Assembly (NCBI GenBank): GCA_000934665.2
Contig: KZ538245.1
Coordinates: 1 to 64,000 of the forward strand
Direction of reading: 5' to 3'
DNA: 64,000 bases
Source: Catajapyx aquilonaris
Taxonomy: Eukaryota
Part shown: positions 30,552 through 44,170 of the stretch, piece after piece
Layout: every line of letters starts with the position of its first letter
Position numbering within the stretch: the stretch's first letter is position 1
The notes under the pieces: model-generated
The model's database searches: none
Told to the model about the DNA's origin: nothing
What the model saw: the letters and a program-made list of their open reading frames with translations, nothing else
Translations under genes and position numbers: made by a program

Positions 30552-32675
<2,124 letters not shown>

Positions 32676-32853: not shown

Positions 32854-32928
32854 NNNNNNNNNNNNNNNNNNNNNNNNNNNNNNNNNNNNNNNNNNNNNNN
32901 NNNNNNNNNNNNNNNNNNNNNNNNNNNN
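32854..32928. other. Assembly gap (N run) inside the TRAM1/Ars2 divergent promoter region
   Basis: 75 N bases next to G-runs; YY1-type motifs (aaatatggcggc, aaacatggcgg) at about 33003-33041; probable non-coding Ars2 exon donor at about 33202. Confidence 0.9.
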
Positions 32929-33883: not shown

Positions 33884-34373
33884 CAAAAAACATTTGTTTA
33901 CCTCCCATTGTTGCGCGAGAACAAAATTGTGACGTCATTTTCGTTTCCCGCACTGTAGAGTAAACTTTATCGTAACGTACGGAAAACGAGAGTACGGTCC
34001 GACGTCGCCCAAGTTTTCCATGGAAATACCCCCTGCAGAACAGTATGAGTAAACAGTGTCAACAAATAAAAGGCAACAATGGTCGTCAGATCGTTATCTC
34101 GTTTTCCGCCCCCCGATGGTCCTTATCGCGGTGGTGGGGGTTTGCGCTTCTCCCATTACCCCAAGAGCTATGTCGGCGGTAGCTTCGTCTACTGGTAGGG
34201 CCTACCCAAGCCGGACAGGTCTTTGGGATAGGAGACAGACGAAGAGAGATGCCAGTCTTTCCTCTCTTCATTTTCCTGTTCGTTTCTCTCTCCATCTGTC
34301 CCACCTTCTTCTTATAGCCAGATAGCCATAGTTGCTTTGGCTTCTTCGCAATAAAGCCTAAAGCCTTGTTTTC

Positions 34374-34419
<46 letters not shown>

Positions 34420-34532
34420 GCATTACTCCATGGGGGGAGCTACCGACTCCTTAGGGGGGGGGGGGTGGATTACCACCATTGGTATTTATTGGAGCTAATT
34501 AAGAAGATCTTATTACTACGGGTATGTAGGGG

Positions 34533-34717
34533 ATGTCTCTAACAGTCATTTTGTGAGCTCCCCCGGGTGACTTAGTCTGTCGGAAATTGCCACCCGAAAT
34601 GAAGCCAGAGATGGCCCAACTCTGCACGGATAAAGGTGGGAACCCCGGGTGGGGATCGAACCGGTGACTTTAATATCCGTGGGTGCGAGCGTTACCGCTG
34701 CGCCACTTCACCTCCCC
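34533..34717 (-). mobile_element. tRNA-derived SINE, copy 2
   Basis: Near-identical to 13825-14007; GGTTCGATCC B box on the minus strand. Confidence 0.8.
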
Positions 34718-34880
34718 GTTTACCGATCATTATTTCGAATTGCAGCATGGAATAAAGCTACATAAATATGGAGCGTTAAGAATTTTACATCAATAACCCT
34801 GCGTTACATGTTATGGGGACACAACTAATAACACAGTGTTTCCCAGGTGAAGGAGGTATCTATGCTGATTAGGTGAAAGG

Positions 34881-37800
34881 ATGGCGGACAGTGACGACGA
34901 GTACGATCGGAAGAGGAGAGATAAGTTCCGTGGGGAGAGGAATGAGTACCGAGAGGGTCGCAGAGAAGAACGGCCCAGGAGAGACGATTGGACAGAAAGG
35001 TAGCCAAATCTCTCAAAACGTTTCATATTCAAGTAGTACTCGTTACTTTATTTCATATTTATTTGCTTATTTACTGTTCATTTACTTATTCTTAAATCAT
35101 AGTTGATTTACGATGTACTTATTTATTTGCTATTGATTTATTTACTGTTCATTTACTTATTCTTTGTAGTTAATTTACTATTTACTTATTTATTAGTAGT
35201 TTACAATTAATAAATTAATTTATGATATTGACTTTTATATTTAGTTACGCTTTTATTTACTTTTTTCTTTATTTCTTTATTATTAATTATTTATGTACAG
35301 TGTTATTTATTTCCTGTTGATTTACTTTTTGCTATTAATTATTTACTATTGTATTCATTTCCTCTTATTGACTTTTTTATTTACATGCTATTTTTATGTG
35401 TTGATTTATTTATTATTTTAATGATTTATTATTTATATATTTACGTATTTGTGTGTGTATTTAATTACCCTGGGATAGAGCAGAGATCTCTCAGGGAGAC
35501 AACCTTTGATTGCGGGACTCATGACTAAATTTAATTATCAAATAGGGACCAGTGGGCTCGAGGTCGTACTCGAGGCGAGTACAGAGACTATCGCGGGAGG
35601 GACAGCCGCTACAGCCCTGTGAGGAGCCATGACATTTCGCCCCCCGTCAAGCGCATGAGGACTGACTGGTAAGGAAATGTCAGCAGCACAGACGTGGACT
35701 TTGCTGATCAATATTAATTCTGCTTCAGGGAGGACAGGAGATACGGTCATGACAGTGGCTACAACAACTACAATTCTTGGGGAAACTACGACTACAGCAG
35801 TAGTCATTCCTCCTCCTATGGGAATCATTCGAGTAATCAGAAGTAAGATTATTTTTTGCAAACTTCCTGAAGCATGTTTTAAAATTCTTTGCCTGTTTTG
35901 CGCAAAAGTGCTGACGCTCTAAAATTTCATTAGCAGAGAGCCTGAGACTGGTCCAACGCAGCCTCCGATGCTGTCGTTCAAGGCATTCCTGGCCAGCCAG
36001 GACGATGCAATCTCGGACGAGGAAGCGATCCGGAAGTATAACGAATACAAACTTGAGTTCAAGCGGCAGCAGCTCAATGAGTTCTTTATGGCACATCGAG
36101 AGGAGGAGTGGTGAGTGACTTCGAGAATCTGCCTATTTTAAGAAAAGGAGACGAAGAAAAAAATAATAATTTGTGCTGGCATTAGCTTCATTATCTCTTG
36201 TTAGAAAAATGTGCAAGACCTTTAGTGTGTGGATGCCTTTTCAAATTTATTTACAGAGTTTTTACGTCAATCCAGTCACATTTACCCACACATTGAAGGT
36301 TGGCTAATTTTAATTTAACAGCTAATTGCGGCCAGAAAGAGAGTTTTTTTATCTGTACAGCTAACGAGTGCTTCTTTCCCAGCAGCAGTTTCTGGCCTAA
36401 AGGCCCAGGAACTTCCGGCGCTTTGATTTTGTGTGAGTGTTTCATGCACACACAAGCTCAGAAAATATGATTTGTGAATTCCTCCGTTTTATGTCTGCAA
36501 GAGAGGGGAGAGATCATCCCCGCCGCGTCTCATATAGTTAGGGCCGCACTGCGCACAATGCAGTTGCAGATTACGGAAATGCGAGAGTTTCGGTTCAGGC
36601 TTAGCTAGGGGGGGCCCTCCCCGTGGCCCCAATCTCGGTTTTACATTCGCTTCGACTTTACGTTGTCCAATTTATCACTCCCTCAGGGGCTGATGCAACT
36701 CTTGACAGGTGAGATACTATGATCCCCCATAACACCAAAAACAATATTTAATGAATAAAAACACAAGGCTTTTTGTTGTGGTATGTACTGTACAAATTAT
36801 TATTATTTTTTTGGGTGGCCTCATTTTAGTTTTCTTTTTTATTATGTACGGTCGTGAGCATAAAGATTTAATACTCACGGCTGTACATATTATGTAAATA
36901 CCAGGCGGCAGACATTCAAGCTCAAACCGTATTAATTTGGCAACATTTTTTGTAAAATCCGGTTGCATTTCAAGTCCATTCGAGGCATATCCCCAATGGA
37001 AGTTTAAGCATTAAAATGACAGCAATTGCTAAATTAATTTTTTTCAAATTATCGCACGTAACGTGGCAAAATAATTTTGCTTCAAATTTTCCTACGTAAT
37101 CTGGAAAAATAATTTCGCTTCAAACTTTTGTATGTAATTGGGAAAAATTATTTCGCTTCAAATTTTTGTACGTAATTAGGTAAAATTATTTCGCTTCAAA
37201 TTTTTGAACGTAACCTGGAAAAATTATTTCGCTTCAAACTTTTGTACGTAATCTGGAAAAATAAAATTGCTTCAAACTTTTGTACGTAATCTGGAAAAAT
37301 AAAATTGCTTCAAACTTTTGTACGTAATCGGGAAAAATTATTTCGTTTCAAACTTTTGTACGTAATCTGGAAAAATTATTTTGCTTCAAACTTTTGTACA
37401 TAATCTGGAAAAATAAAATTGCTTCAAACTTTTGTATGTAATCGGGAAAAATTATTTCGCTTCAAATTTTTGTACGTAATCTGGTAAAATTATTTTGCTT
37501 CAAATTTTCCTACGTAATCTGGCAAAGATTTATTACTTGATGTGTCTTTTTTTTCGTAAATGCAGCATCGCAATGTTTGACCAAAAGAACTGCCCTGGTT
37601 TTAATGTGTCTCATTGTTCGTGATGTAATCACACAATCGCACCAGTGCCGTTTTATGTAGCACACGATTGTTTCAAATGGAGAAAAAAAAATGGGGTTCA
37701 AAGCCTTGCCACTTTGTCCACTGTGTCACGATTTGTGATTGTTCAACTCATGTACTTAACGGAGTTTGGGAAGCGCATGATTTCATTGCAGATGAAGGTA

Positions 37801-40800
37801 ATTGCGATGATCTTTGTGTAATTGCGTTACGTGTCATTATTTCGGTTGCGAGTTTTAAAAGTCAACAGGACATGATGTGTGCTTCCCAAAATTCCTAAGA
37901 GAGTTGGAGGACATGTAATTAGATTGTAATTAGACATGTCCTCCAACTTAATTGCTTTACAAGCCAAGCGGCTCACGTCCTATGAACGTGAACTAGTTTG
38001 GCGGTGAAGCGACAAAATGTGACCCGCATTTATTGATTGTAGCGTGGAGATTGCAAGTGCGGCACTTACATGCGAACAGTTCTGATATGCTCATTGTCTT
38101 CTGTAGGTTTAAAGTTAAATATCATCCGGAAGAATGTGTCAAGAGGAAAGAGGAACAAATGGCTGCGCTGAAGGTAACATTTTTTTTGCCGTACACATTG
38201 GGTGCGTTACCTAGTCATGCGTTTATTTTTTTTTCCAGCGTCGAGTTGACGTTTTCACTGAGTTTTGGGAGGGCGGCAGAATTGACGGAATTACCATCGA
38301 TGCGGACCAATCGGAGAAGCTGGTGCGTTTGCTGGACGCCGTAGTTATCAAGCTGGAAGGAGGATCTGACTTCGACCTGAAGGTTTTGGATGAACCTCCT
38401 CCGCCTGAGAAGCCATCGGAGTCTGAGGAAGCTCGGCCGTACATTCTGGGAGAAGAGTACGTAGGCTTGTTGTCGCTTTTCCCAGGTCATTGGACTATAG
38501 CAAATTGAAGTCATTTGCTTTTATTTTCCACCCAGCGTATACAAGACCACTGATACCTCATGCAAACTACCCTTACCTGGATGTCCCATCTCCTTTACCA
38601 TCTCCAAGTTTCATCCTGGACAGGACAAACCCATCCACAAAAATTTGGGACACCTAATCGAAGATTATTGCTTGATTTGGAATTGGTAGAAAATCTTGAC
38701 TGAAATGAGAGCGTCACATTTTATTCCCCAATTTATTAACGAGCCCGCCGTTTTATTTAGAACCAATTAAATATTTTTTTGCGGGGGGAGGGCCGCAATG
38801 AAATTAATTTAGCTGTACCACTAGTCCACGTCGTCTGATTGTAATTTTTTTTTGTTCTTCCAGTAATGACAAGCAGAAGTCGAGGACAGCAGCATCGACT
38901 CCAGACTCTCAGAAGGATCCGTCCCAACCGCTCAAACTGGCCATATCGTCAGAGCAGGTTGAACTTCAGCGCAAGGCCAAGGAGTTCCTCAGGCAGAAAA
39001 GTGGCGAAGGTGAATTTGTCAGCAAATGCAATTATTTCAAAATGTGATTTAAAAAAAATATAAAACCAAATGTTCCGTTTCTTTCAGAAGGTGGTACGAA
39101 GAGGAAGAGAGAGTACGACTCGGAGAGCGGAAGCGAAAGTGGGGAAGAAGCTGACGAGCCAGCTCCACCAGGTGTGATATATTTCATTTAGAAAGAAGCC
39201 AGACCATTCCCGCGAGTAATTCATGATTAGACATTTATGAGCACAGTAATTGATTTCGTGCTGGTTTTAATTTGCGTAAGGCGTTGGAGGATTTAACTTG
39301 GGGTAACTCGTTTTATTAGGTATGGAGGAGTCGAACGCAGGCTCGGAGAGCAAGGGTCCAGAGGAGAAGGGTGAGGACGTTGAGGAGGGTGAGGACGGTG
39401 GAGAGGACGAAGAGAATGATAAGTCCGAGAAGTCTCCAAGTGCGAGCGCTTCTCCTAAGAAAGTGGAAGGTGACAAGAGTGCGGAGAACAAAGATGAGGA
39501 AGCCGCCAACGATGAGGTAGTTTTTACCTGAATTTAAATTGTCGTTAGAAAATAATTGTGGCTTTAATTACGCTAGGCTAAGGAGAAGGAGAAAGAACCG
39601 CAGAAGGAACGATCTGTCTCCCCCGAAGGCAAGGCGGATAAGGAGGACGATGAAGAGCGGAAGGACGACGAGGACGATGCGGAGAAGGAGAAGGATCCGA
39701 AGCCTCATCCGCTTCACAAGACAGCGTCCATCTTCCTTCGAAACCTTGCGCCGTCTATTACCAAGCAGGAAGTTGAGGCTGTAAGTTGACTTCATGTACG
39801 TTCGTGCACATTCGCTGACGTTTGTTCCGCAGATGTGCAAGCGGTACCCTGGCTTCCTTCGTGTGGCCATCGCCGATCCGCAGCCTGAGCGACGTTGGTT
39901 CCGCCGCGGTTGGGTGACCTTCGAGCGGTCGGTGAACATCAAGGAGATCTGCTGGAACCTGAACAACATCCGATTGCGCGATTGCGAACTGGGCGCAATC
40001 GTGAACCGCGATCTTAGTCGTCGCATCAGAACCGTGAATGGGGTCGCATCGCACAAGCAGGTGGTCAGACACGACATCAAGTTGGCCGCCAGGATAATCC
40101 AGAATCTGGATGCGAAGTGGGAGCTCTGGGGAAGCCAAGGGGCGGCACCAGGCAACGATCAACAGGAAAAGCAGGACCAGGAGGTGAGAAATGCATGATT
40201 GTCGTCATGAATTTGCAGAAGGATTACCGTAATGGTTTTGTATGAAATTTCGCAGCCCGGTTTCGGTGGTTTGGCATCTCGTAACCCGATTTTGCACAAC
40301 ATTACCGATTACCTTATCGAAGAAGCTTCTGCGGAAGAGGAAGAGCTGTTGGGACATTCGGCGGATCAGGAGGAAGGGCAGGTCAACGAGGATGGAGCCA
40401 CGATCGAGAGGGACGATGAGCTTATCAAGGTTCTGGACCGTTTGCTGCTGTACCTGCGCATCGTGCACTCTGTGGATTATTACAATCACGCCGAGTATCC
40501 CAGCGAGGATGAGATGCCCAACCGTTGCGGGATCATGCACGCTCGAGGCATCCCTCCCTCTTCGAAGGTGAGCGCCCATCATTTTTTAATAACATAATCG
40601 TTGGGGTCTCGGTTAAATATTTTATGACCATCTAATGCGTTTGCAGGTGACTCCTCCGGAAGTGTCGGACTACTGTTCCGCCTTCGAGCAGAAAGTGGCC
40701 TCGTTTCTTCAGCCTTCCAGCCAGGTTGTGGACGACGAGTGCAAGAAACTGGGGCTGAAGAATCCCGAAGCGTATCCTTTCCGGCAGAACATTAGGCCGG

Positions 40801-42934
40801 GTTTCACCTGGTTAAAATTTTAGAGCCTTGGTTGCCACAGCAACAATTTGTTGTTGGCAGTGAGGATTTTCCTCGAATAATAATAATAATAATCGACATT
40901 TATAAGATGCGATGCGAATTCATGTTCGTTGTGGGTGTGATTCGAAATGGTTGTCCAGTTATTTCCTGAACGTGGCTTCAGCGAAGTGGAGAAGTTCATA
41001 ACGGCGAACACCCAAGAGTTGGCCAAGGACAAATGGTTGTGTCCTCTCTCCGGGAAGAAGTTCAAAGGTCCCGAGTATGTCCGGAAGCACATATTCAACA
41101 AGCATGGCGAGAAGGTCGAGGAGGTTAAGAAGGAGGTCAGTACATTTCCTCTGGTGTACGGATTTTAAGAACGCAAAAGGCTGAATAATGTCGTTTTTTT
41201 TTTTAAAAGGTGGAGTACTTCAACAACTATCTCCGTGATCCCAGACGACCCCAGTTGGCCGAACATCCAGGCAACAAGCAGCCAGCTAGAGGCGAAAGTG
41301 CGGCGGGGGAGCGGGCAGGGACAGGATTCGAAGCCACACAGTACCAGCAGCAGTGAGTACATGTAATGCTACGTGAAATTGCGATCGGGTAAATGTTTTT
41401 TTTTCATATCGATAGGTACAACTACGGGAATTACGGCGGAGGTGGACGGCACAGTGGCGGAGGGTACGGAGGAAGCGGCTACTCTGGGATGGGGTACGGA
41501 AGGGACCAGTACCAGAGGGATCCATATCGAGAGCAGTACGGTGGGAGGTCCAGAGGCGGAGGAGGATACAACCGGAACAGGTTGGTTATCTCCGCACGTT
41601 ATGTGGCTTCAATTTGAAATGGTTTACGAATTGCACGTTACTTGATAAAAGCGGACATTTGGTACTTTTTTTTTTTTGTAAAATCACGTAGTAATTGTGC
41701 ACATACTTTCTAGTAGCGTTGACGTTTAATTAATGGCGTAGGAACTTGGATTTCAGGCCCCCCTGTGGGGACAGCAGAGAAATAATCGCTTATCATGACC
41801 TGGACACCCCGGAGGACTTGGACATCTTCTGATTTTCTCTGGCTGGCTGGGCTCTCTGGCATTTTTTTTTTAAACAAAAAAATTGGGTGGGTAGCAATCA
41901 CTGTCGAAAGAAAGTTTTTGGCCAAACGTATCCTGGCTTTAACCACTGAAGAAACTTTTGGAAGAAAAAAAATCGAACATAGTTAGGATATGTTGGGCCG
42001 AAACATTTTTTTTTGACAAATCGTACTTGCATAGTTTTTTTTTTTTTTTTGTGTAATTATTTTAATGGTTGGAATGCATCGCAGAAACCAGGTTGTCGTA
42101 ATTTTTCTGCAGTTCGATTTGACGGATGTTCCCCGACGTGGATTGTTCCGCAGCCGTAAATCGAGATTGACGTATTATATAACGTGTGCGATGTGGCTCG
42201 TAACATCAATTCTTCGACATTTAGCGCATGACGGAATATTTTTAATGTAAGTTTGTATTGAGGACAGCTGCATGTGTCACGTTGACGGCAATTGGTGTTG
42301 AAGGTAGTGGTCGTAGAGTGATTGTTTGGCGCTGGTTGACGTTTGGTTTCTGCGTTGCAGCCTTCCCCCCGATAAGTGAGTGCCAACTGGCCAGCCAGCA
42401 TTAATCAGGGTTCGGTTCTCTTTTGTTTTCCAGAGGTGTATAATTGTACAGTCAGTACCGTACCGAATATGTATTGATTTTTCAGAGAGGGTGTTTGGTT
42501 AGCAATTAAAAGTGTCAACTCAATTGTGTTAGCATCTTGGATGTTTTTTTTAAAAAAACGTGGGATTGGACCTAACCCATAAATCTTTCAATTCCGAACC
42601 CTGATTAGTGTATGGCCACTTATTACGTACTAGAGCAGCCTTAGGCTAACGTATACATGTTAATGTAATTATTTGGAAGTGTAGGGCTGGTTACTTTTCC
42701 ATAATTTGCTTACATGCAACACCAACCGAAAAAAAGGCCCTTTACATTTTTAAAACAATGTATATATAAAAAAAGAGGATCCGTACCCTTGATGCTGATA
42801 CATTGCCCGTTAACCGTCTTTCTAATTACGATTTGTAAAGTACTTACAGGCTGCTTGCTTCTTACAGGATGGACTACAGGCCGATGGTGCAGTATCGAGA
42901 TTTGGATGCTCCCCGTGACACAGATGAATTCTAA
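34881..42934 (+). CDS. SRRT: Serrate RNA effector / Ars2; multi-exon, alternative last exons 41757-41832 and 42868-42934
   Basis: [142 protein letters not shown]. Confidence 0.96.
37065..37525. repeat. ~39-bp minisatellite in an Ars2 intron
   Basis: About 11 units of cttcaaacttttgtacgtaatctggaaaaattatttcg-like sequence with no unique spacers. Confidence 0.9.
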
Positions 42935-43337
42935 GAAAAGAATTCCGAGCGTAATGAAAGGACTTTATTTCTTTTTTTAAAATTAATTAATCGGAGCACC
43001 TCTTGTCACTAATTAGTGGCATCGCACCAGTATTGTTTTCAGTTTCCGACGGGATCTTCCCCTATACAGGTTTAGGCTGGAAGATTCACGGATTTTGGTT
43101 TTTTTTTTGATGGTGAGGTGGTTGGTTATTTTTAAAATAAATTTTTTTTCTTAACCTGTCATTCGCATCGAGTGTTATTAGCGTGTACGGTACTGATTAT
43201 TTTCTTCCGCTGGAAACTGTGACGGTTGATATTTTTTGTTTTTTCTGTAACAAAATGTAGTACCATTGTGTCTTTAGTAAAACGTCGCTCATGATTGGCC
43301 CCGTGTTAATCCCATAATTACCTGTGTGTTCATTCGG

Positions 43338-44170
43338 CTAGAGCTGAATTTCGGATTCGGACGGCCTGTGCCATCTCCTATCCTTCATTGGTGATGCATC
43401 CTCTCGAGAGTCATGCTTGTGTTGTGGTACGGCCAAAGGGCTACTTCCAGAACTCCTGTACTTAAGTCCTTGTTGCATAATCGAGGCCAGATAATCCATG
43501 AATTTCTTCCAAGCCGTACTGCCATCGTGGTTCATGCCGCGACTCAGCACAATTTCTATCGTCTCGAGTATTATATTAGTCGCATCCTGCAAACATCGGA
43601 TTGTGACTAGTGTACGACTGTTTTAAACCTTAAGTATACCTGAAAGGCTTGCGGGCCAACTTTCTTCTCGATGTGCTTCTGTCCGAGTAATATAAGTTCT
43701 TCGACAACCGCGTCTTCTGTGCGGTACGTGTACATTGCATCCATGTACAATTCGAGCTTGTCTATCATCCCTTTGCCATGTTTGGCCACGTCCGGGTGGC
43801 GAGCCAGTTGCGTGTAAGGCAGCGACTCGAGGCTAGGGAACTTCTTCTTGTACATCGGGTAGGCAGCGAACAACCTGCGAATTATGACACGTTGGCGATC
43901 AACATTTTGTCGGTACGAAAATGTTACTTACTGCATCATAATTGTTATTGCCAGGCTATCTTTTTCTTCTTGCGTAGTGAACAAGTACCAGGTTTGTTTG
44001 ACACTACTCATCTCGGAGGCTGTAGGTTTTACAGTTGATCTTTTACCCAAGGTTCCCTGTAATTGGTGTCAGTGAATCAATTGTTGATTACAGCTAATTA
44101 ATGCGCTTACTAATAGCGATGAGAAAACAAGGAGGCACAGGCCGCCTTTTACGATCGAAGAGTTTGCCAT
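43338..44170 (-). CDS. Globin with predicted N-terminal signal peptide; exons 44111-44170, 43932-44056, 43640-43874, 43338-43586
   Basis: MANSSIVKGGLCLLVFSSLL|GTLG..SVKQTW (A helix)..LFAAYPMYKKKF (CD1 Phe)..VAKHGKGM (E7 His)..LGQKHIEK (F8 His)..AWKKF (H helix). Introns sit at positions matching the canonical B12.2 and G7.0. Confidence 0.85.

What the first reader, a model, noticed from the sequence alone, without database searches (positions are those of the whole stretch)
41757..42934. Ars2 has duplicated alternative last exons encoding two variants of the CBC-binding C-terminus
Seen: after the phase-2 donor at 41581, exon A (41757-41832) gives [25 protein letters not shown] and exon B (42868-42934) gives [22 protein letters not shown]. 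Both are in frame and both resemble the metazoan ARS2 tail (YRDLDAP..F). A candidate poly(A) signal (attaaa, about 42505) lies between them, and exon B has a second in-frame acceptor 18 nt upstream (42850). Established: the extreme C-terminus of ARS2 docks on the nuclear cap-binding complex. Inference: alternative polyadenylation/splicing switches CBC affinity, possibly as autoregulation because ARS2 influences 3' processing.
Basis: partly seen in the sequence, partly recalled or inferred. Interest (0 to 1): 0.75.

Follow-up and report, generated by a model that had tools for sequence, protein, structure and literature searches.

The report
Ars2 gene with two alternative tails
This arthropod Ars2 gene makes two versions of the short tail that docks the protein on the nuclear cap-binding complex, by including or skipping a small exon that carries its own stop codon; the same pair of tails is annotated across arthropods but seems never to have been studied.

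Summary
After the phase-2 donor at 41580, two in-frame pieces each encode an ARS2-type tail followed by a stop. The motif occurs only at these two places in the window's six frames, against 0.01 expected.

The anatomy needs correcting. Spliced contigs of the one public run that holds this locus show 41580>42868, which skips exon A. They also show 41580>41742 plus 41886>42868. Exon A is therefore a 145-nt penultimate cassette exon (41742-41886, stop at 41830-32) joined to exon B. It is not a separate last exon with its own poly(A) site.

Both tails keep the Arg-x4-Tyr and the C-terminal x-Asp-x-Phe contacts that human ARS2 uses on the cap-binding complex (CBC).

Both tail classes are annotated as isoforms of one gene in all 10 arthropod protein clusters opened, and in Drosophila. 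All 120 mollusc and chordate hits have a single class.

This is a real alternative C-terminus that dates to early arthropods. It is present in databases, and I found no paper on it in five literature searches. A change in CBC affinity and autoregulation remain untested.

The parts
34881..43302 (+). Ars2/SRRT gene, from the start codon ([16 protein letters not shown]...) to the approximate mRNA end
   Evidence: ORF list. tblastn of insect Ars2 proteins lands on 34881-42931. Pfam PF12066 and PF04959 score above their cut-offs. One search shows 11 GT..AG joints between constitutive exons from 38171 to 41416.
41416..41580 (+). Last common coding exon (Gly/Tyr/Arg-rich, ...GGGGYNRN + AG). Its phase-2 donor is 41580|GT.
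   Evidence: Joints 41352>41416, 41580>41742 and 41580>42868. Translation.
41742..41886 (+). Exon A, a 145-nt stop-containing penultimate cassette exon. With the split Arg codon it encodes [30 protein letters not shown].
   Evidence: One contig (depth 21.1) carries both joints, 41580>41742 and 41886>42868, each GT..AG. Splice-site context.
41776..41829 (+). Tail A docking motif: Arg-x4-Tyr ... x-Asp-x-Phe at the C-terminus ([18 protein letters not shown])
   Evidence: Alignment to 5OO6_C. Residue roles from PMC5670239 and the bioRxiv preprint 2023.07.25.550453.
41830..41832 (+). Stop codon TGA of the A form, 54 nt before the exon A/exon B junction
41757..41757 (+). Not used in the contigs seen.
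41887..42867 (+). Intron between exon A and exon B. It holds the ATTAAA at 42505, short inverted repeats, and an unspliced low-depth contig from 42265 onward.
42868..43302 (+). Exon B, the terminal exon shared by both mRNA forms. In the skip form it encodes [22 protein letters not shown]. In the A form it is 3' UTR.
   Evidence: Joints 41580>42868 (depth 23) and 41886>42868 (depth 21.1). A contig covers 42867-43302 at depth 42.9.
42878..42931 (+). Tail B docking motif ([18 protein letters not shown]). The stop TAA is at 42932-42934.
43276..43281 (+). AGTAAA, a candidate variant poly(A) signal about 21 nt before the place where the RNA contig stops (43302)
   Evidence: This is weak: contigs cannot show a true RNA end.
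42505..42510 (+).
   Evidence: Present. An unspliced contig runs through it from 42265 to 42893.
42850..42850 (+). Not used in the contigs seen.

Best explanation
The locus is the 3' end of an arthropod Ars2/SRRT gene.

Shown:
- A 145-nt penultimate cassette exon (A, 41742-41886) is either included or skipped.
- When included, its own stop codon ends the protein with tail A (...[21 protein letters not shown]). Exon B then becomes 3' UTR.
- When skipped, the last common exon joins exon B directly and the protein ends with tail B (...[21 protein letters not shown]).
- The two tails are homologous. The two-tail design is present in chelicerates, crustaceans and insects, and was not seen in molluscs or chordates.

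Inferred from the human CBC-ARS2 structure and mutagenesis:
- Both tails dock in the groove between the two subunits of the cap-binding complex (CBC), CBP20 and CBP80. They would do so through Arg-x4-Tyr at the proximal site and x-Asp-x-Phe-COOH at the distal site.
- Splicing therefore does not switch CBC binding on and off.
- It exchanges the residues around these anchors. These are the position after Tyr (His against Arg), the position before Tyr, and the first residue after DLDxP (acidic against basic). In many lineages the distal end differs too.
- The most likely effect is a tuning of affinity, of competition with other CBC effectors, or of binding to a still unknown partner of the DLDAP segment.

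Inferred origin: a tandem duplication of the terminal coding exon in the arthropod stem lineage.
For: Splicing:
- Run X1 gives contigs 100% identical to the window.
- It has 11 GT..AG joints between constitutive Ars2 exons, the three joints that define both forms, and one further joint in the neighbouring globin gene.
- The inclusion contig has depth 21.1, the skip contig 23, and shared exon B about 43, which is roughly their sum.

Frames and stops.

Chance: the motif occurs twice in the window against 0.01 expected.

Homology to the CBC-docking peptide:
- Both tails align end to end with 5OO6_C at E about 0.002.
- R854, Y859, D869 and F871 are matched at the same spacing.
- Their roles come from passages of PMC5670239. 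The R854A/Y859A double mutant abolishes binding. F871D changes the dissociation constant from 1.0 to 1.8 uM.
- The site definitions 'RxxxxY' and 'xDxF-Cter' come from passages of bioRxiv 2023.07.25.550453.

Conservation:
- 97 of the 120 listed homologues have a tail motif, and all 97 have Arg at Tyr-5.
- 10 of 10 clusters opened hold both tail classes as isoforms of one gene. They are Schistocerca, Dermacentor, Rhipicephalus, horseshoe crabs, crayfish/lobster, Penaeus, Cryptotermes, sawflies, leaf-cutter ants and Centruroides.
- Drosophila simulans, sechellia, yakuba, erecta, suzukii and ananassae have both classes.
- 120 of 120 non-arthropod hits have one class.

Tree of 42 hand-picked tails (21 columns):
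- The His-type arthropod tails, including the window's A, form one split with support 98/95.
- The window's B sits inside the mandibulate B set with support 98/93.
Against: - RNA evidence comes from one run of one study. Its library type is not on record, and it is held as contigs only.
- The three decisive joints have 24-30 letters on the shorter side. That is below the 31 letters the tool asks for when counting a record as bridging.
- Contig depth is a poor measure of abundance.
- No binding was tested, and no CBC subunit of this species was available.
- The stop in exon A lies 54 nt before the last junction, on the border of the 50-55-nt rule. Some decay of the A form cannot be excluded.
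- The genomic order of A and B in other arthropods could not be checked, because no eukaryotic genomes are held. 'Cassette exon' is therefore shown for this species only.
- The tail tree rests on 21 columns, and most of its forks are unresolved.
- For the non-arthropods only cluster representatives were read, so a hidden second tail cannot be excluded.
- In this species both tails end in x-D-x-F. The distal-end difference seen in other lineages does not apply here.
Confidence: 0.82

Rival explanations
1. These are true alternative last exons. Exon A ends in its own 3' UTR and poly(A) site (ATTAAA at 42505), and alternative polyadenylation competes with splicing to exon B.
For: ATTAAA is present at 42505, between the two exons. 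Contigs drop rare variants, so a minor A-terminal mRNA cannot be excluded (tool note).
Against: The only A-containing contig is spliced from 41886 to 42868. The depth in bins 41618-42019 is fully accounted for by exon A alone (77/201 and 68/201 of 21.1), so cover after the donor is about zero. The low-depth contig 42265-42893 runs through 42505 without stopping.
Confidence: 0.07
2. Exon A is mainly a regulatory 'poison' exon. Its inclusion places a premature stop before the last junction and lowers Ars2 output through mRNA decay, possibly as autoregulation. The tail A protein would have no role of its own.
For: Exon A is a stop-containing cassette exon whose length (145 nt) is not a multiple of 3. 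Its stop lies 54 nt before the last exon junction. A link between ARS2 isoforms and nonsense-mediated decay is described in mammals (PMC8860587, abstract and passages), but for N-terminal isoforms.
Against: Tail A is conserved as protein across chelicerates, myriapods, crustaceans and insects. Arg at Tyr-5 is kept in 39 of 39 unique non-Arg-type tails, and Phe at Tyr+12 in 29 of 39. That is not expected of a mere decoy. The inclusion contig is about as deep as the skip contig, 21.1 against 23 (a weak measure). UniProt reference entries for several Drosophila species carry the A tail.
Confidence: 0.08
3. This is an artefact. The second tail would be a decayed remnant of an exon duplication, or the joints would be mis-assemblies, and only one form would be functional.
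For: The joint sides are short, 24-30 letters, and come from a single run.
Against: All three joints are exact, canonical GT..AG and in frame, and lie in contigs 100% identical to the window. The same two tail classes recur as isoforms in 10 of 10 arthropod clusters opened and in Drosophila. The motif is absent elsewhere in the window.
Confidence: 0.03

Closest known systems
Human ARS2 C-terminal peptide bound to m7GTP-CBC (PDB 5OO6; Schulze & Cusack 2017, PMC5670239)
   Same: Both window tails align end to end with the crystallised peptide. They keep Arg-x4-Tyr, Asp at -2 and the C-terminal Phe at the same spacing. The DLDxP core is also kept.
   Different: Human, other chordate and mollusc proteins listed here show one tail class only. 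The arthropod gene encodes two and chooses by splicing. Positions 858, 860 and 866 in human numbering differ systematically between the two classes.
NELF-E C-terminal peptide, which binds the same CBC groove in competition with ARS2
   Same: It has the same bipartite docking logic: Arg, Tyr and a terminal Phe (passages of PMC5670239). It shows that variants of this peptide give different affinities. The dissociation constant is 0.05 uM for NELF-E against 1 uM for ARS2.
   Different: It is a different protein, not a splice variant. No NELF-E sequence was examined here.
[quoted passage not shown]
   Same: The architecture is the same. A penultimate exon is included or excluded. When included it supplies the C-terminus and consists mostly of untranslated bases, and the last exon is shared.
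   Different: The Mhc exons encode 1-13 residues and are described as not conserved. The Ars2 exon A encodes a conserved docking peptide that is homologous to the one in the last exon.
Mammalian ARS2n/ARS2c isoforms (PMC8860587)
   Same: Alternative splicing of Ars2 gives functionally distinct proteins.
   Different: Those isoforms differ at the N-terminus through intron 5 and share the CBC-binding C-terminus (passages). Here the C-terminus itself is exchanged.
Database isoform models of arthropod Ars2 (RefSeq 'isoform X', FlyBase-style 'isoform A/C/D/E')
   Same: They carry the same two tail classes as isoforms of one gene in many species.
   Different: They are annotation only. In some searches I found no paper that notes, compares or tests the two tails.

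Membership tests
ARS2/SRRT protein family | SERRATE/Ars2 N-terminal domain (PF12066) and ARS2 domain (PF04959) | tested here: met
   Exon 35923-36114 hits PF12066 at 58.2 bits (cut-off 27.3). Exon 40983-41132 hits PF04959 at 97.8 bits (cut-off 30). 1090 homologues have E<=0.001, and the named ones are 'serrate RNA effector molecule homolog' or 'arsenic resistance protein 2'.
CBC-docking C-terminal peptide of ARS2/NELF-E type | Proximal-site motif Arg-x4-Tyr | tested here: met
   Tail A has REIIAY and tail B has RPMVQY. They align to R854...Y859 of 5OO6_C.
CBC-docking C-terminal peptide of ARS2/NELF-E type | Distal-site motif x-Asp-x-Phe at the very C-terminus, 12 residues after the Tyr | tested here: met
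   Tail A ends LDIF* and tail B ends TDEF*, each with Phe at Tyr+12. Across arthropods only 4 of 63 unique Arg-type tails end this way, against 15 of 39 non-Arg-type tails.
CBC-docking C-terminal peptide of ARS2/NELF-E type | Physical, cap-enhanced binding to CBP20-CBP80 | not testable with these tools
   No CBC subunit of this or a related species was in hand, and the complex predictor takes only session sequences or prokaryotic references. No job was run.
Tandem-duplicated, alternatively spliced exons (mutually exclusive exon type) | Adjacent homologous exons | tested here: met
   A and B lie 981 nt apart. They share 10 of 22 residues and 32 of 66 bases in register. Both match the same PDB peptide.
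Tandem-duplicated, alternatively spliced exons (mutually exclusive exon type) | One and only one of the exons is present in the mature mRNA | tested here: not met
   The A-containing contig also contains exon B (joint 41886>42868). Exclusivity holds only at the protein level, through the stop in A.
Alternative last exons with alternative polyadenylation | Each terminal exon has its own cleavage/poly(A) site | tested here: not met
   Exon A is spliced on to exon B. There is about zero depth after its donor, and an unspliced contig runs through ATTAAA at 42505. This rests on one run held as contigs, so a minor form is not excluded.
Poison (decay-inducing) cassette exon | Premature stop more than about 50-55 nt before the last exon junction, and a peptide not under protein-level constraint | tested here: inconclusive
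   The distance is 54 nt, which is borderline. The peptide is conserved across arthropods, which argues against a pure decoy. Decay itself was not testable.

The most novel reading that the evidence does not exclude
Arthropods use splicing of one small exon to choose between two paralogous CBC-docking tails of Ars2, and the two tails engage the cap-binding complex differently.

- The His-type tail A would be a full bipartite binder that fills the distal x-D-x-F pocket.
- The Arg-type tail B lacks a correctly placed terminal Phe in most lineages. It would leave that pocket, or the unknown partner of the DLDAP segment, open to other effectors such as PHAX or NELF-E.
- The A/B ratio would then set how capped transcripts are sorted between export, processing and decay.
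- That would be a splice-encoded layer of RNA-fate control, absent from the mollusc and chordate proteins listed here, which show a single tail class.
Probability: 0.2. Interest if true: 0.75.

Novelty: new variant of a known kind. Interest (0 to 1): 0.5.

Why it matters
ARS2 is the main adaptor that couples the nuclear cap-binding complex to RNA processing, export and decay. Its last roughly 20 residues are the docking site.

A pair of alternative docking tails conserved across arthropods is a natural experiment on three open points:
- What the residues around the Arg/Tyr/Phe anchors do.
- What the DLDAP segment does. It is invariant, yet it is not seen contacting CBC in the crystal.
- How effectors compete for the same groove.

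Because Drosophila carries both tails, isoform-specific genetics and binding assays are directly feasible.

For annotation, the case shows that what looks like twin terminal exons can be a stop-carrying penultimate cassette exon with a shared 3' end.

Tried and rejected
- **RNA runs:** the search listed a single holder, X1. No listed holder is on record as RNA. X1's contigs turned out to be spliced. No second run was available, so tissue or stage regulation could not be examined.
- **Parts without cover** (41581-41741, 41887-42264): noted only. They are not used as proof of absence.
- **Acceptor 42850 and poly(A) signal 42505:** no contig uses them. This is not evidence that they are never used.
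- **Own genome:** none is held, so paralogues and the CBC subunit genes of this species could not be sought.
- **No eukaryotic genome collection is on hand:** the order and spacing of exons A and B in other arthropods could not be checked.
- **Earlier findings of the scan:** none by place or by words.
- **Rfam scan of 34000-44000:** nothing at gathering score.
- **Repeat scan of 41400-43400:** only short T-rich repeats and 15-19-nt inverted repeats. No repeated copy of the exon at DNA level beyond the coding similarity.
- **Literature:** five searches found no paper on alternative Ars2 C-termini. PMC2717035 (Sabin et al. 2009) is not held. Subscription papers are not searched, and no supplements were opened.
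- **Complex prediction of tail with CBC:** not run, because no CBC sequence from a session source was available.
- **My first regex label:** it called the chelicerate Arg-type tails 'A', because their position 866 is T or D. I re-read them by eye, and by the residue after Tyr.
Full report
**1. What is in the sequence**

The window holds an Ars2/SRRT gene on the + strand, from about 34881 ([16 protein letters not shown]...) to about 43300.
- Translated exons hit the two Pfam families that define the protein, both above their curated cut-offs. PF12066 scores 58.2 bits and PF04959 scores 97.8 bits.
- A 116-residue exon finds 1090 homologues. The named ones are 'serrate RNA effector molecule homolog' or 'arsenic resistance protein 2'.
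- The nearest full-length proteins are polyneopteran insects, at only about 66% identity over the aligned exons. The species itself is not in the protein collection. I take it to be an arthropod, probably on or near the hexapod line, and name it no further.

- The exon ending at 41580 (CAG|GTTGGT) leaves two codon bases.
- Joined to 41757-41832 it reads ...[25 protein letters not shown]. Joined to 42868-42934 it reads ...[22 protein letters not shown].
- The pattern Arg-x4-Tyr-x-Asp-[LVI]-[DE]-x-Pro occurs exactly twice in all six frames of the 64-kb window, at 41776 and 42878. Both copies are followed within a few residues by a stop. Shuffled sequence gives 0.01 occurrences per window.
- In register the two coding stretches share 10 of 22 residues and 32 of 66 bases.

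**2. RNA evidence and corrected anatomy**

One public run (X1; library type not on record; kept as contigs) holds 55% of the sampled words of 41400-43000. I laid it on 38000-44000.
- Its contigs are 100% identical to the window and are spliced, so they are RNA-derived.
- There are 11 GT..AG joints between constitutive Ars2 exons (38171/38237 through 41352/41416), the three joints listed below, and one joint in the neighbouring minus-strand gene.

Three joints decide the question. Coordinates include the cut shift that the tool reports.
- 41580>42868, contig depth 23.
- 41580>41742, contig depth 21.1.
- 41886>42868, depth 21.1, on the same contig as the previous joint.

It follows that:
This adds NLDFR.
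- Exon A has a donor at 41886|GTGGGT and is spliced to exon B.
- Exon A is therefore a 145-nt penultimate cassette exon. Its stop (41830-41832) lies 54 nt before the last junction.
- Because 145 is not a multiple of three, exon A can only act as a terminal coding exon.
- Exon B is shared by both mRNAs. Its depth (about 43-46) is roughly the sum of the two upstream branches. By this weak measure the two forms are about equally abundant in that sample.
- The shared contig stops at 43302, about 21 nt after an AGTAAA. Contigs cannot prove an RNA end.

Caveats:
- This is one run from one study.
- The shorter side of each decisive joint is 24-30 letters. That length is what a word-graph assembly leaves at a branch point, but it is under the 31 letters the tool asks for.
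- Depth is not a reliable measure of expression.

- No joint uses the acceptor at 42850.
- Depth in the bins after the exon A donor is fully accounted for by exon A itself, so cover beyond the donor is about zero.
- A low-depth (5.76) unspliced contig runs from 42265 through the ATTAAA at 42505 into exon B.
- Alternative polyadenylation is therefore not needed, though a minor form cannot be excluded.

**3. Relation to the known CBC-docking tail**

Each peptide aligns end to end with the human ARS2 peptide crystallised on the cap-binding complex (5OO6 chain C, E 0.0018 and 0.0023) and with chain D of entry 8PMP, also named Serrate RNA effector molecule homolog.

Passages of PMC5670239 state the following:
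- Arg854 and Tyr859 sit in the proximal pocket.
- Phe871 is buried in a distal pocket, with Asp869 hydrogen-bonded.
- The R854A/Y859A double mutant abolishes binding.
- F871D changes the dissociation constant only from 1.0 to 1.8 uM.
- The most conserved segment, DLDAP, is not seen contacting CBC.

Passages of bioRxiv 2023.07.25.550453 generalise the two sites as 'RxxxxY' and '...xDxF-Cter'. The second is shared by ARS2, NELF-E and PHAX.

In the window both tails have Arg at Tyr-5, Asp at -2 and a C-terminal Phe at Tyr+12. Both should therefore dock, which makes an on/off switch of CBC binding unlikely in this species. This is inference.

**4. Conservation**

Among the 120 listed homologues, 97 carry a recognisable tail, and all 97 have Arg at Tyr-5. 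Two classes are evident.
- One has a non-Arg residue, mostly His, after the Tyr. It usually ends [DE]-x-Phe. An example is ...DPREVIGYHDLDAPDDTDLF in decapods.
- The other has YRDLDAP. An example is ...[21 protein letters not shown] in insects.

I opened ten clusters. All ten hold both classes as named isoforms of one gene:
- Schistocerca
- Dermacentor
- Rhipicephalus
- Tachypleus/Limulus
- crayfish/Homarus
- Penaeus
- Cryptotermes
- diprionid sawflies
- attine ants
- Centruroides

My automatic label misnamed the chelicerate Arg-type tails. I re-read them by the residue after Tyr.

A second search from a sand-fly protein shows both classes in Diptera. Opening four Drosophila clusters shows both in D. 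simulans, sechellia, yakuba, erecta, suzukii and ananassae, the last with 'isoform A/C/D/E' names. D. melanogaster itself was not among the members listed.

I pooled the proteins. I dropped the Octopus protein and one unnamed divergent protein, which left 343.
- 295 have a tail, and there are 102 distinct tails: 63 Arg-type and 39 non-Arg-type.
- Arg at Tyr-5 is kept in 100 of the 102.
- A C-terminal Phe exactly at Tyr+12 is found in 4 of 63 Arg-type tails and 15 of 39 non-Arg-type tails.
- Phe at Tyr+12, with or without extra residues after it, is found in 27 of 63 and 29 of 39.
- Some rows come from unnamed sources and may not all be arthropods.

A search from the Octopus protein gave a different picture. 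All 120 listed proteins (molluscs, amphioxus, vertebrates and some unnamed) show one class only...DPR-x-II-E-Y-R-DLDAP-[DE]-D-x-D-x-F. This includes several isoforms of one species. Only cluster representatives were read there.

I built a likelihood tree of 42 tails, picked by hand from about 500 to span taxa and both classes (21 columns).
- All His-type arthropod tails, from chelicerates, myriapods, crustaceans and insects and including the window's A, fall on one side of a split supported 98/95.
- The window's B falls inside a set of mandibulate Arg-type tails supported 98/93.
- The Arg-type tails and the outgroups are not resolved from each other.
- With so few columns this is only a hint. 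It fits a single duplication before the arthropod crown group, after which one copy acquired the His-type signature.

**5. Mechanism proposed**

Shown:
- Inclusion or skipping of a stop-carrying penultimate exon exchanges the last 22-30 residues of Ars2.
- Both mRNAs share the last exon.

Inferred:
- Both tails dock on CBC through the same anchors.
- What changes is the set of residues around them: His against Arg after the Tyr, Gly/Ala against His/Gln/Thr before it, and acidic against basic after DLDxP.
- In most other lineages the distal end changes too. An extra residue follows the Phe in insects, there is no Phe in chelicerates, and decapods and Drosophila have a shortened tail ending in Tyr.
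- I commit to a tuning of CBC engagement, or of a second partner of the DLDAP segment, rather than an on/off switch.

I give about 0.8 to the structural and evolutionary account, and about 0.2 to the stronger reading that the two tails sort transcripts by competing differently with PHAX or NELF-E.

**6. Rivals**
- True alternative last exons with their own poly(A) site: 0.07.
- A pure poison exon: 0.08. The 54-nt distance is borderline and protein-level conservation argues against it.
- An artefact: 0.03.

**7. Known or new**

The nearest described things are:
- the human ARS2 and NELF-E docking peptides;
- the N-terminal ARS2n/ARS2c isoforms, which share the C-terminus (PMC8860587, passages);
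- the 'differentially included penultimate exon' of arthropod myosin heavy chain genes. This has the same architecture, but its short peptides are described as not conserved (PMC2257972, passages).

The two Ars2 tails are already present in public isoform models of many arthropods, so their existence is not new.

Five full-text searches found no paper that notes or tests them. Subscription journals are not covered, one cited paper was not held, and no supplements were read.

I rate the finding a new variant of a known kind, of moderate interest. It is directly testable in Drosophila.

Noticed in passing
window 42265-42893: An unspliced RNA contig (depth 5.76, about a quarter of the spliced forms) covers the last 600 nt of the A-B intron and runs into exon B. 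There is no cover over 41887-42264 and no joint at its start. It could be partial intron retention, pre-mRNA or an internal start; this is not resolved.
   Followed up: partly
P0126, P0131 (Schistocerca); P0208, P0216 (Cryptotermes); window 41581-41617: Some annotated isoforms end right after the last common exon and have no docking tail at all. In the window, read-through of the 41580 donor would likewise give ...[15 protein letters not shown]. No RNA support for this was seen in run X1.
   Followed up: no
P0077, P0191 and others (decapods); P0272, P0290 and others (Drosophila): The Arg-type tail is shortened to YRDLDAPKEDY in decapods and YRDLDAPQEPY in Drosophila. Both end in Tyr and lack the distal x-D-x-F. 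This looks like parallel truncation in two lineages.
   Followed up: partly
window 43607-43927, minus strand: An exon of a globin-family gene (Pfam PF00042, 35.4 bits) lies convergent with Ars2 and ends about 300 nt from the Ars2 mRNA end. One spliced joint, 43872>43930 (CT..AC, that is GT..AG on the minus strand), is present at low depth.
   Followed up: partly
window 30552-30965 (minus strand) and 31783-32430 (plus strand): Upstream neighbours: an exon with a weak TLC-domain match, and an ORF with twin CHCH/Cx9C motifs. Both matches are below Pfam's cut-offs.
   Followed up: no
window 36950-37620: A run of overlapping 37-residue ORFs in both strands points to a tandem repeat of about 114 nt inside a long Ars2 intron. 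An (ATT)n-like microsatellite lies at about 34355-34420, just upstream of the gene.
   Followed up: no
window 32854-32928 and 28777: Assembly gaps (runs of N), outside the gene studied.
   Followed up: no
window 42399-42415 / 42594-42610 and 42075-42090 / 42344-42359: Two 16-17-nt inverted repeats (94% complementary) lie inside the A-B intron. They could be chance, a small transposon remnant or an RNA structure that affects exon choice.
   Followed up: no
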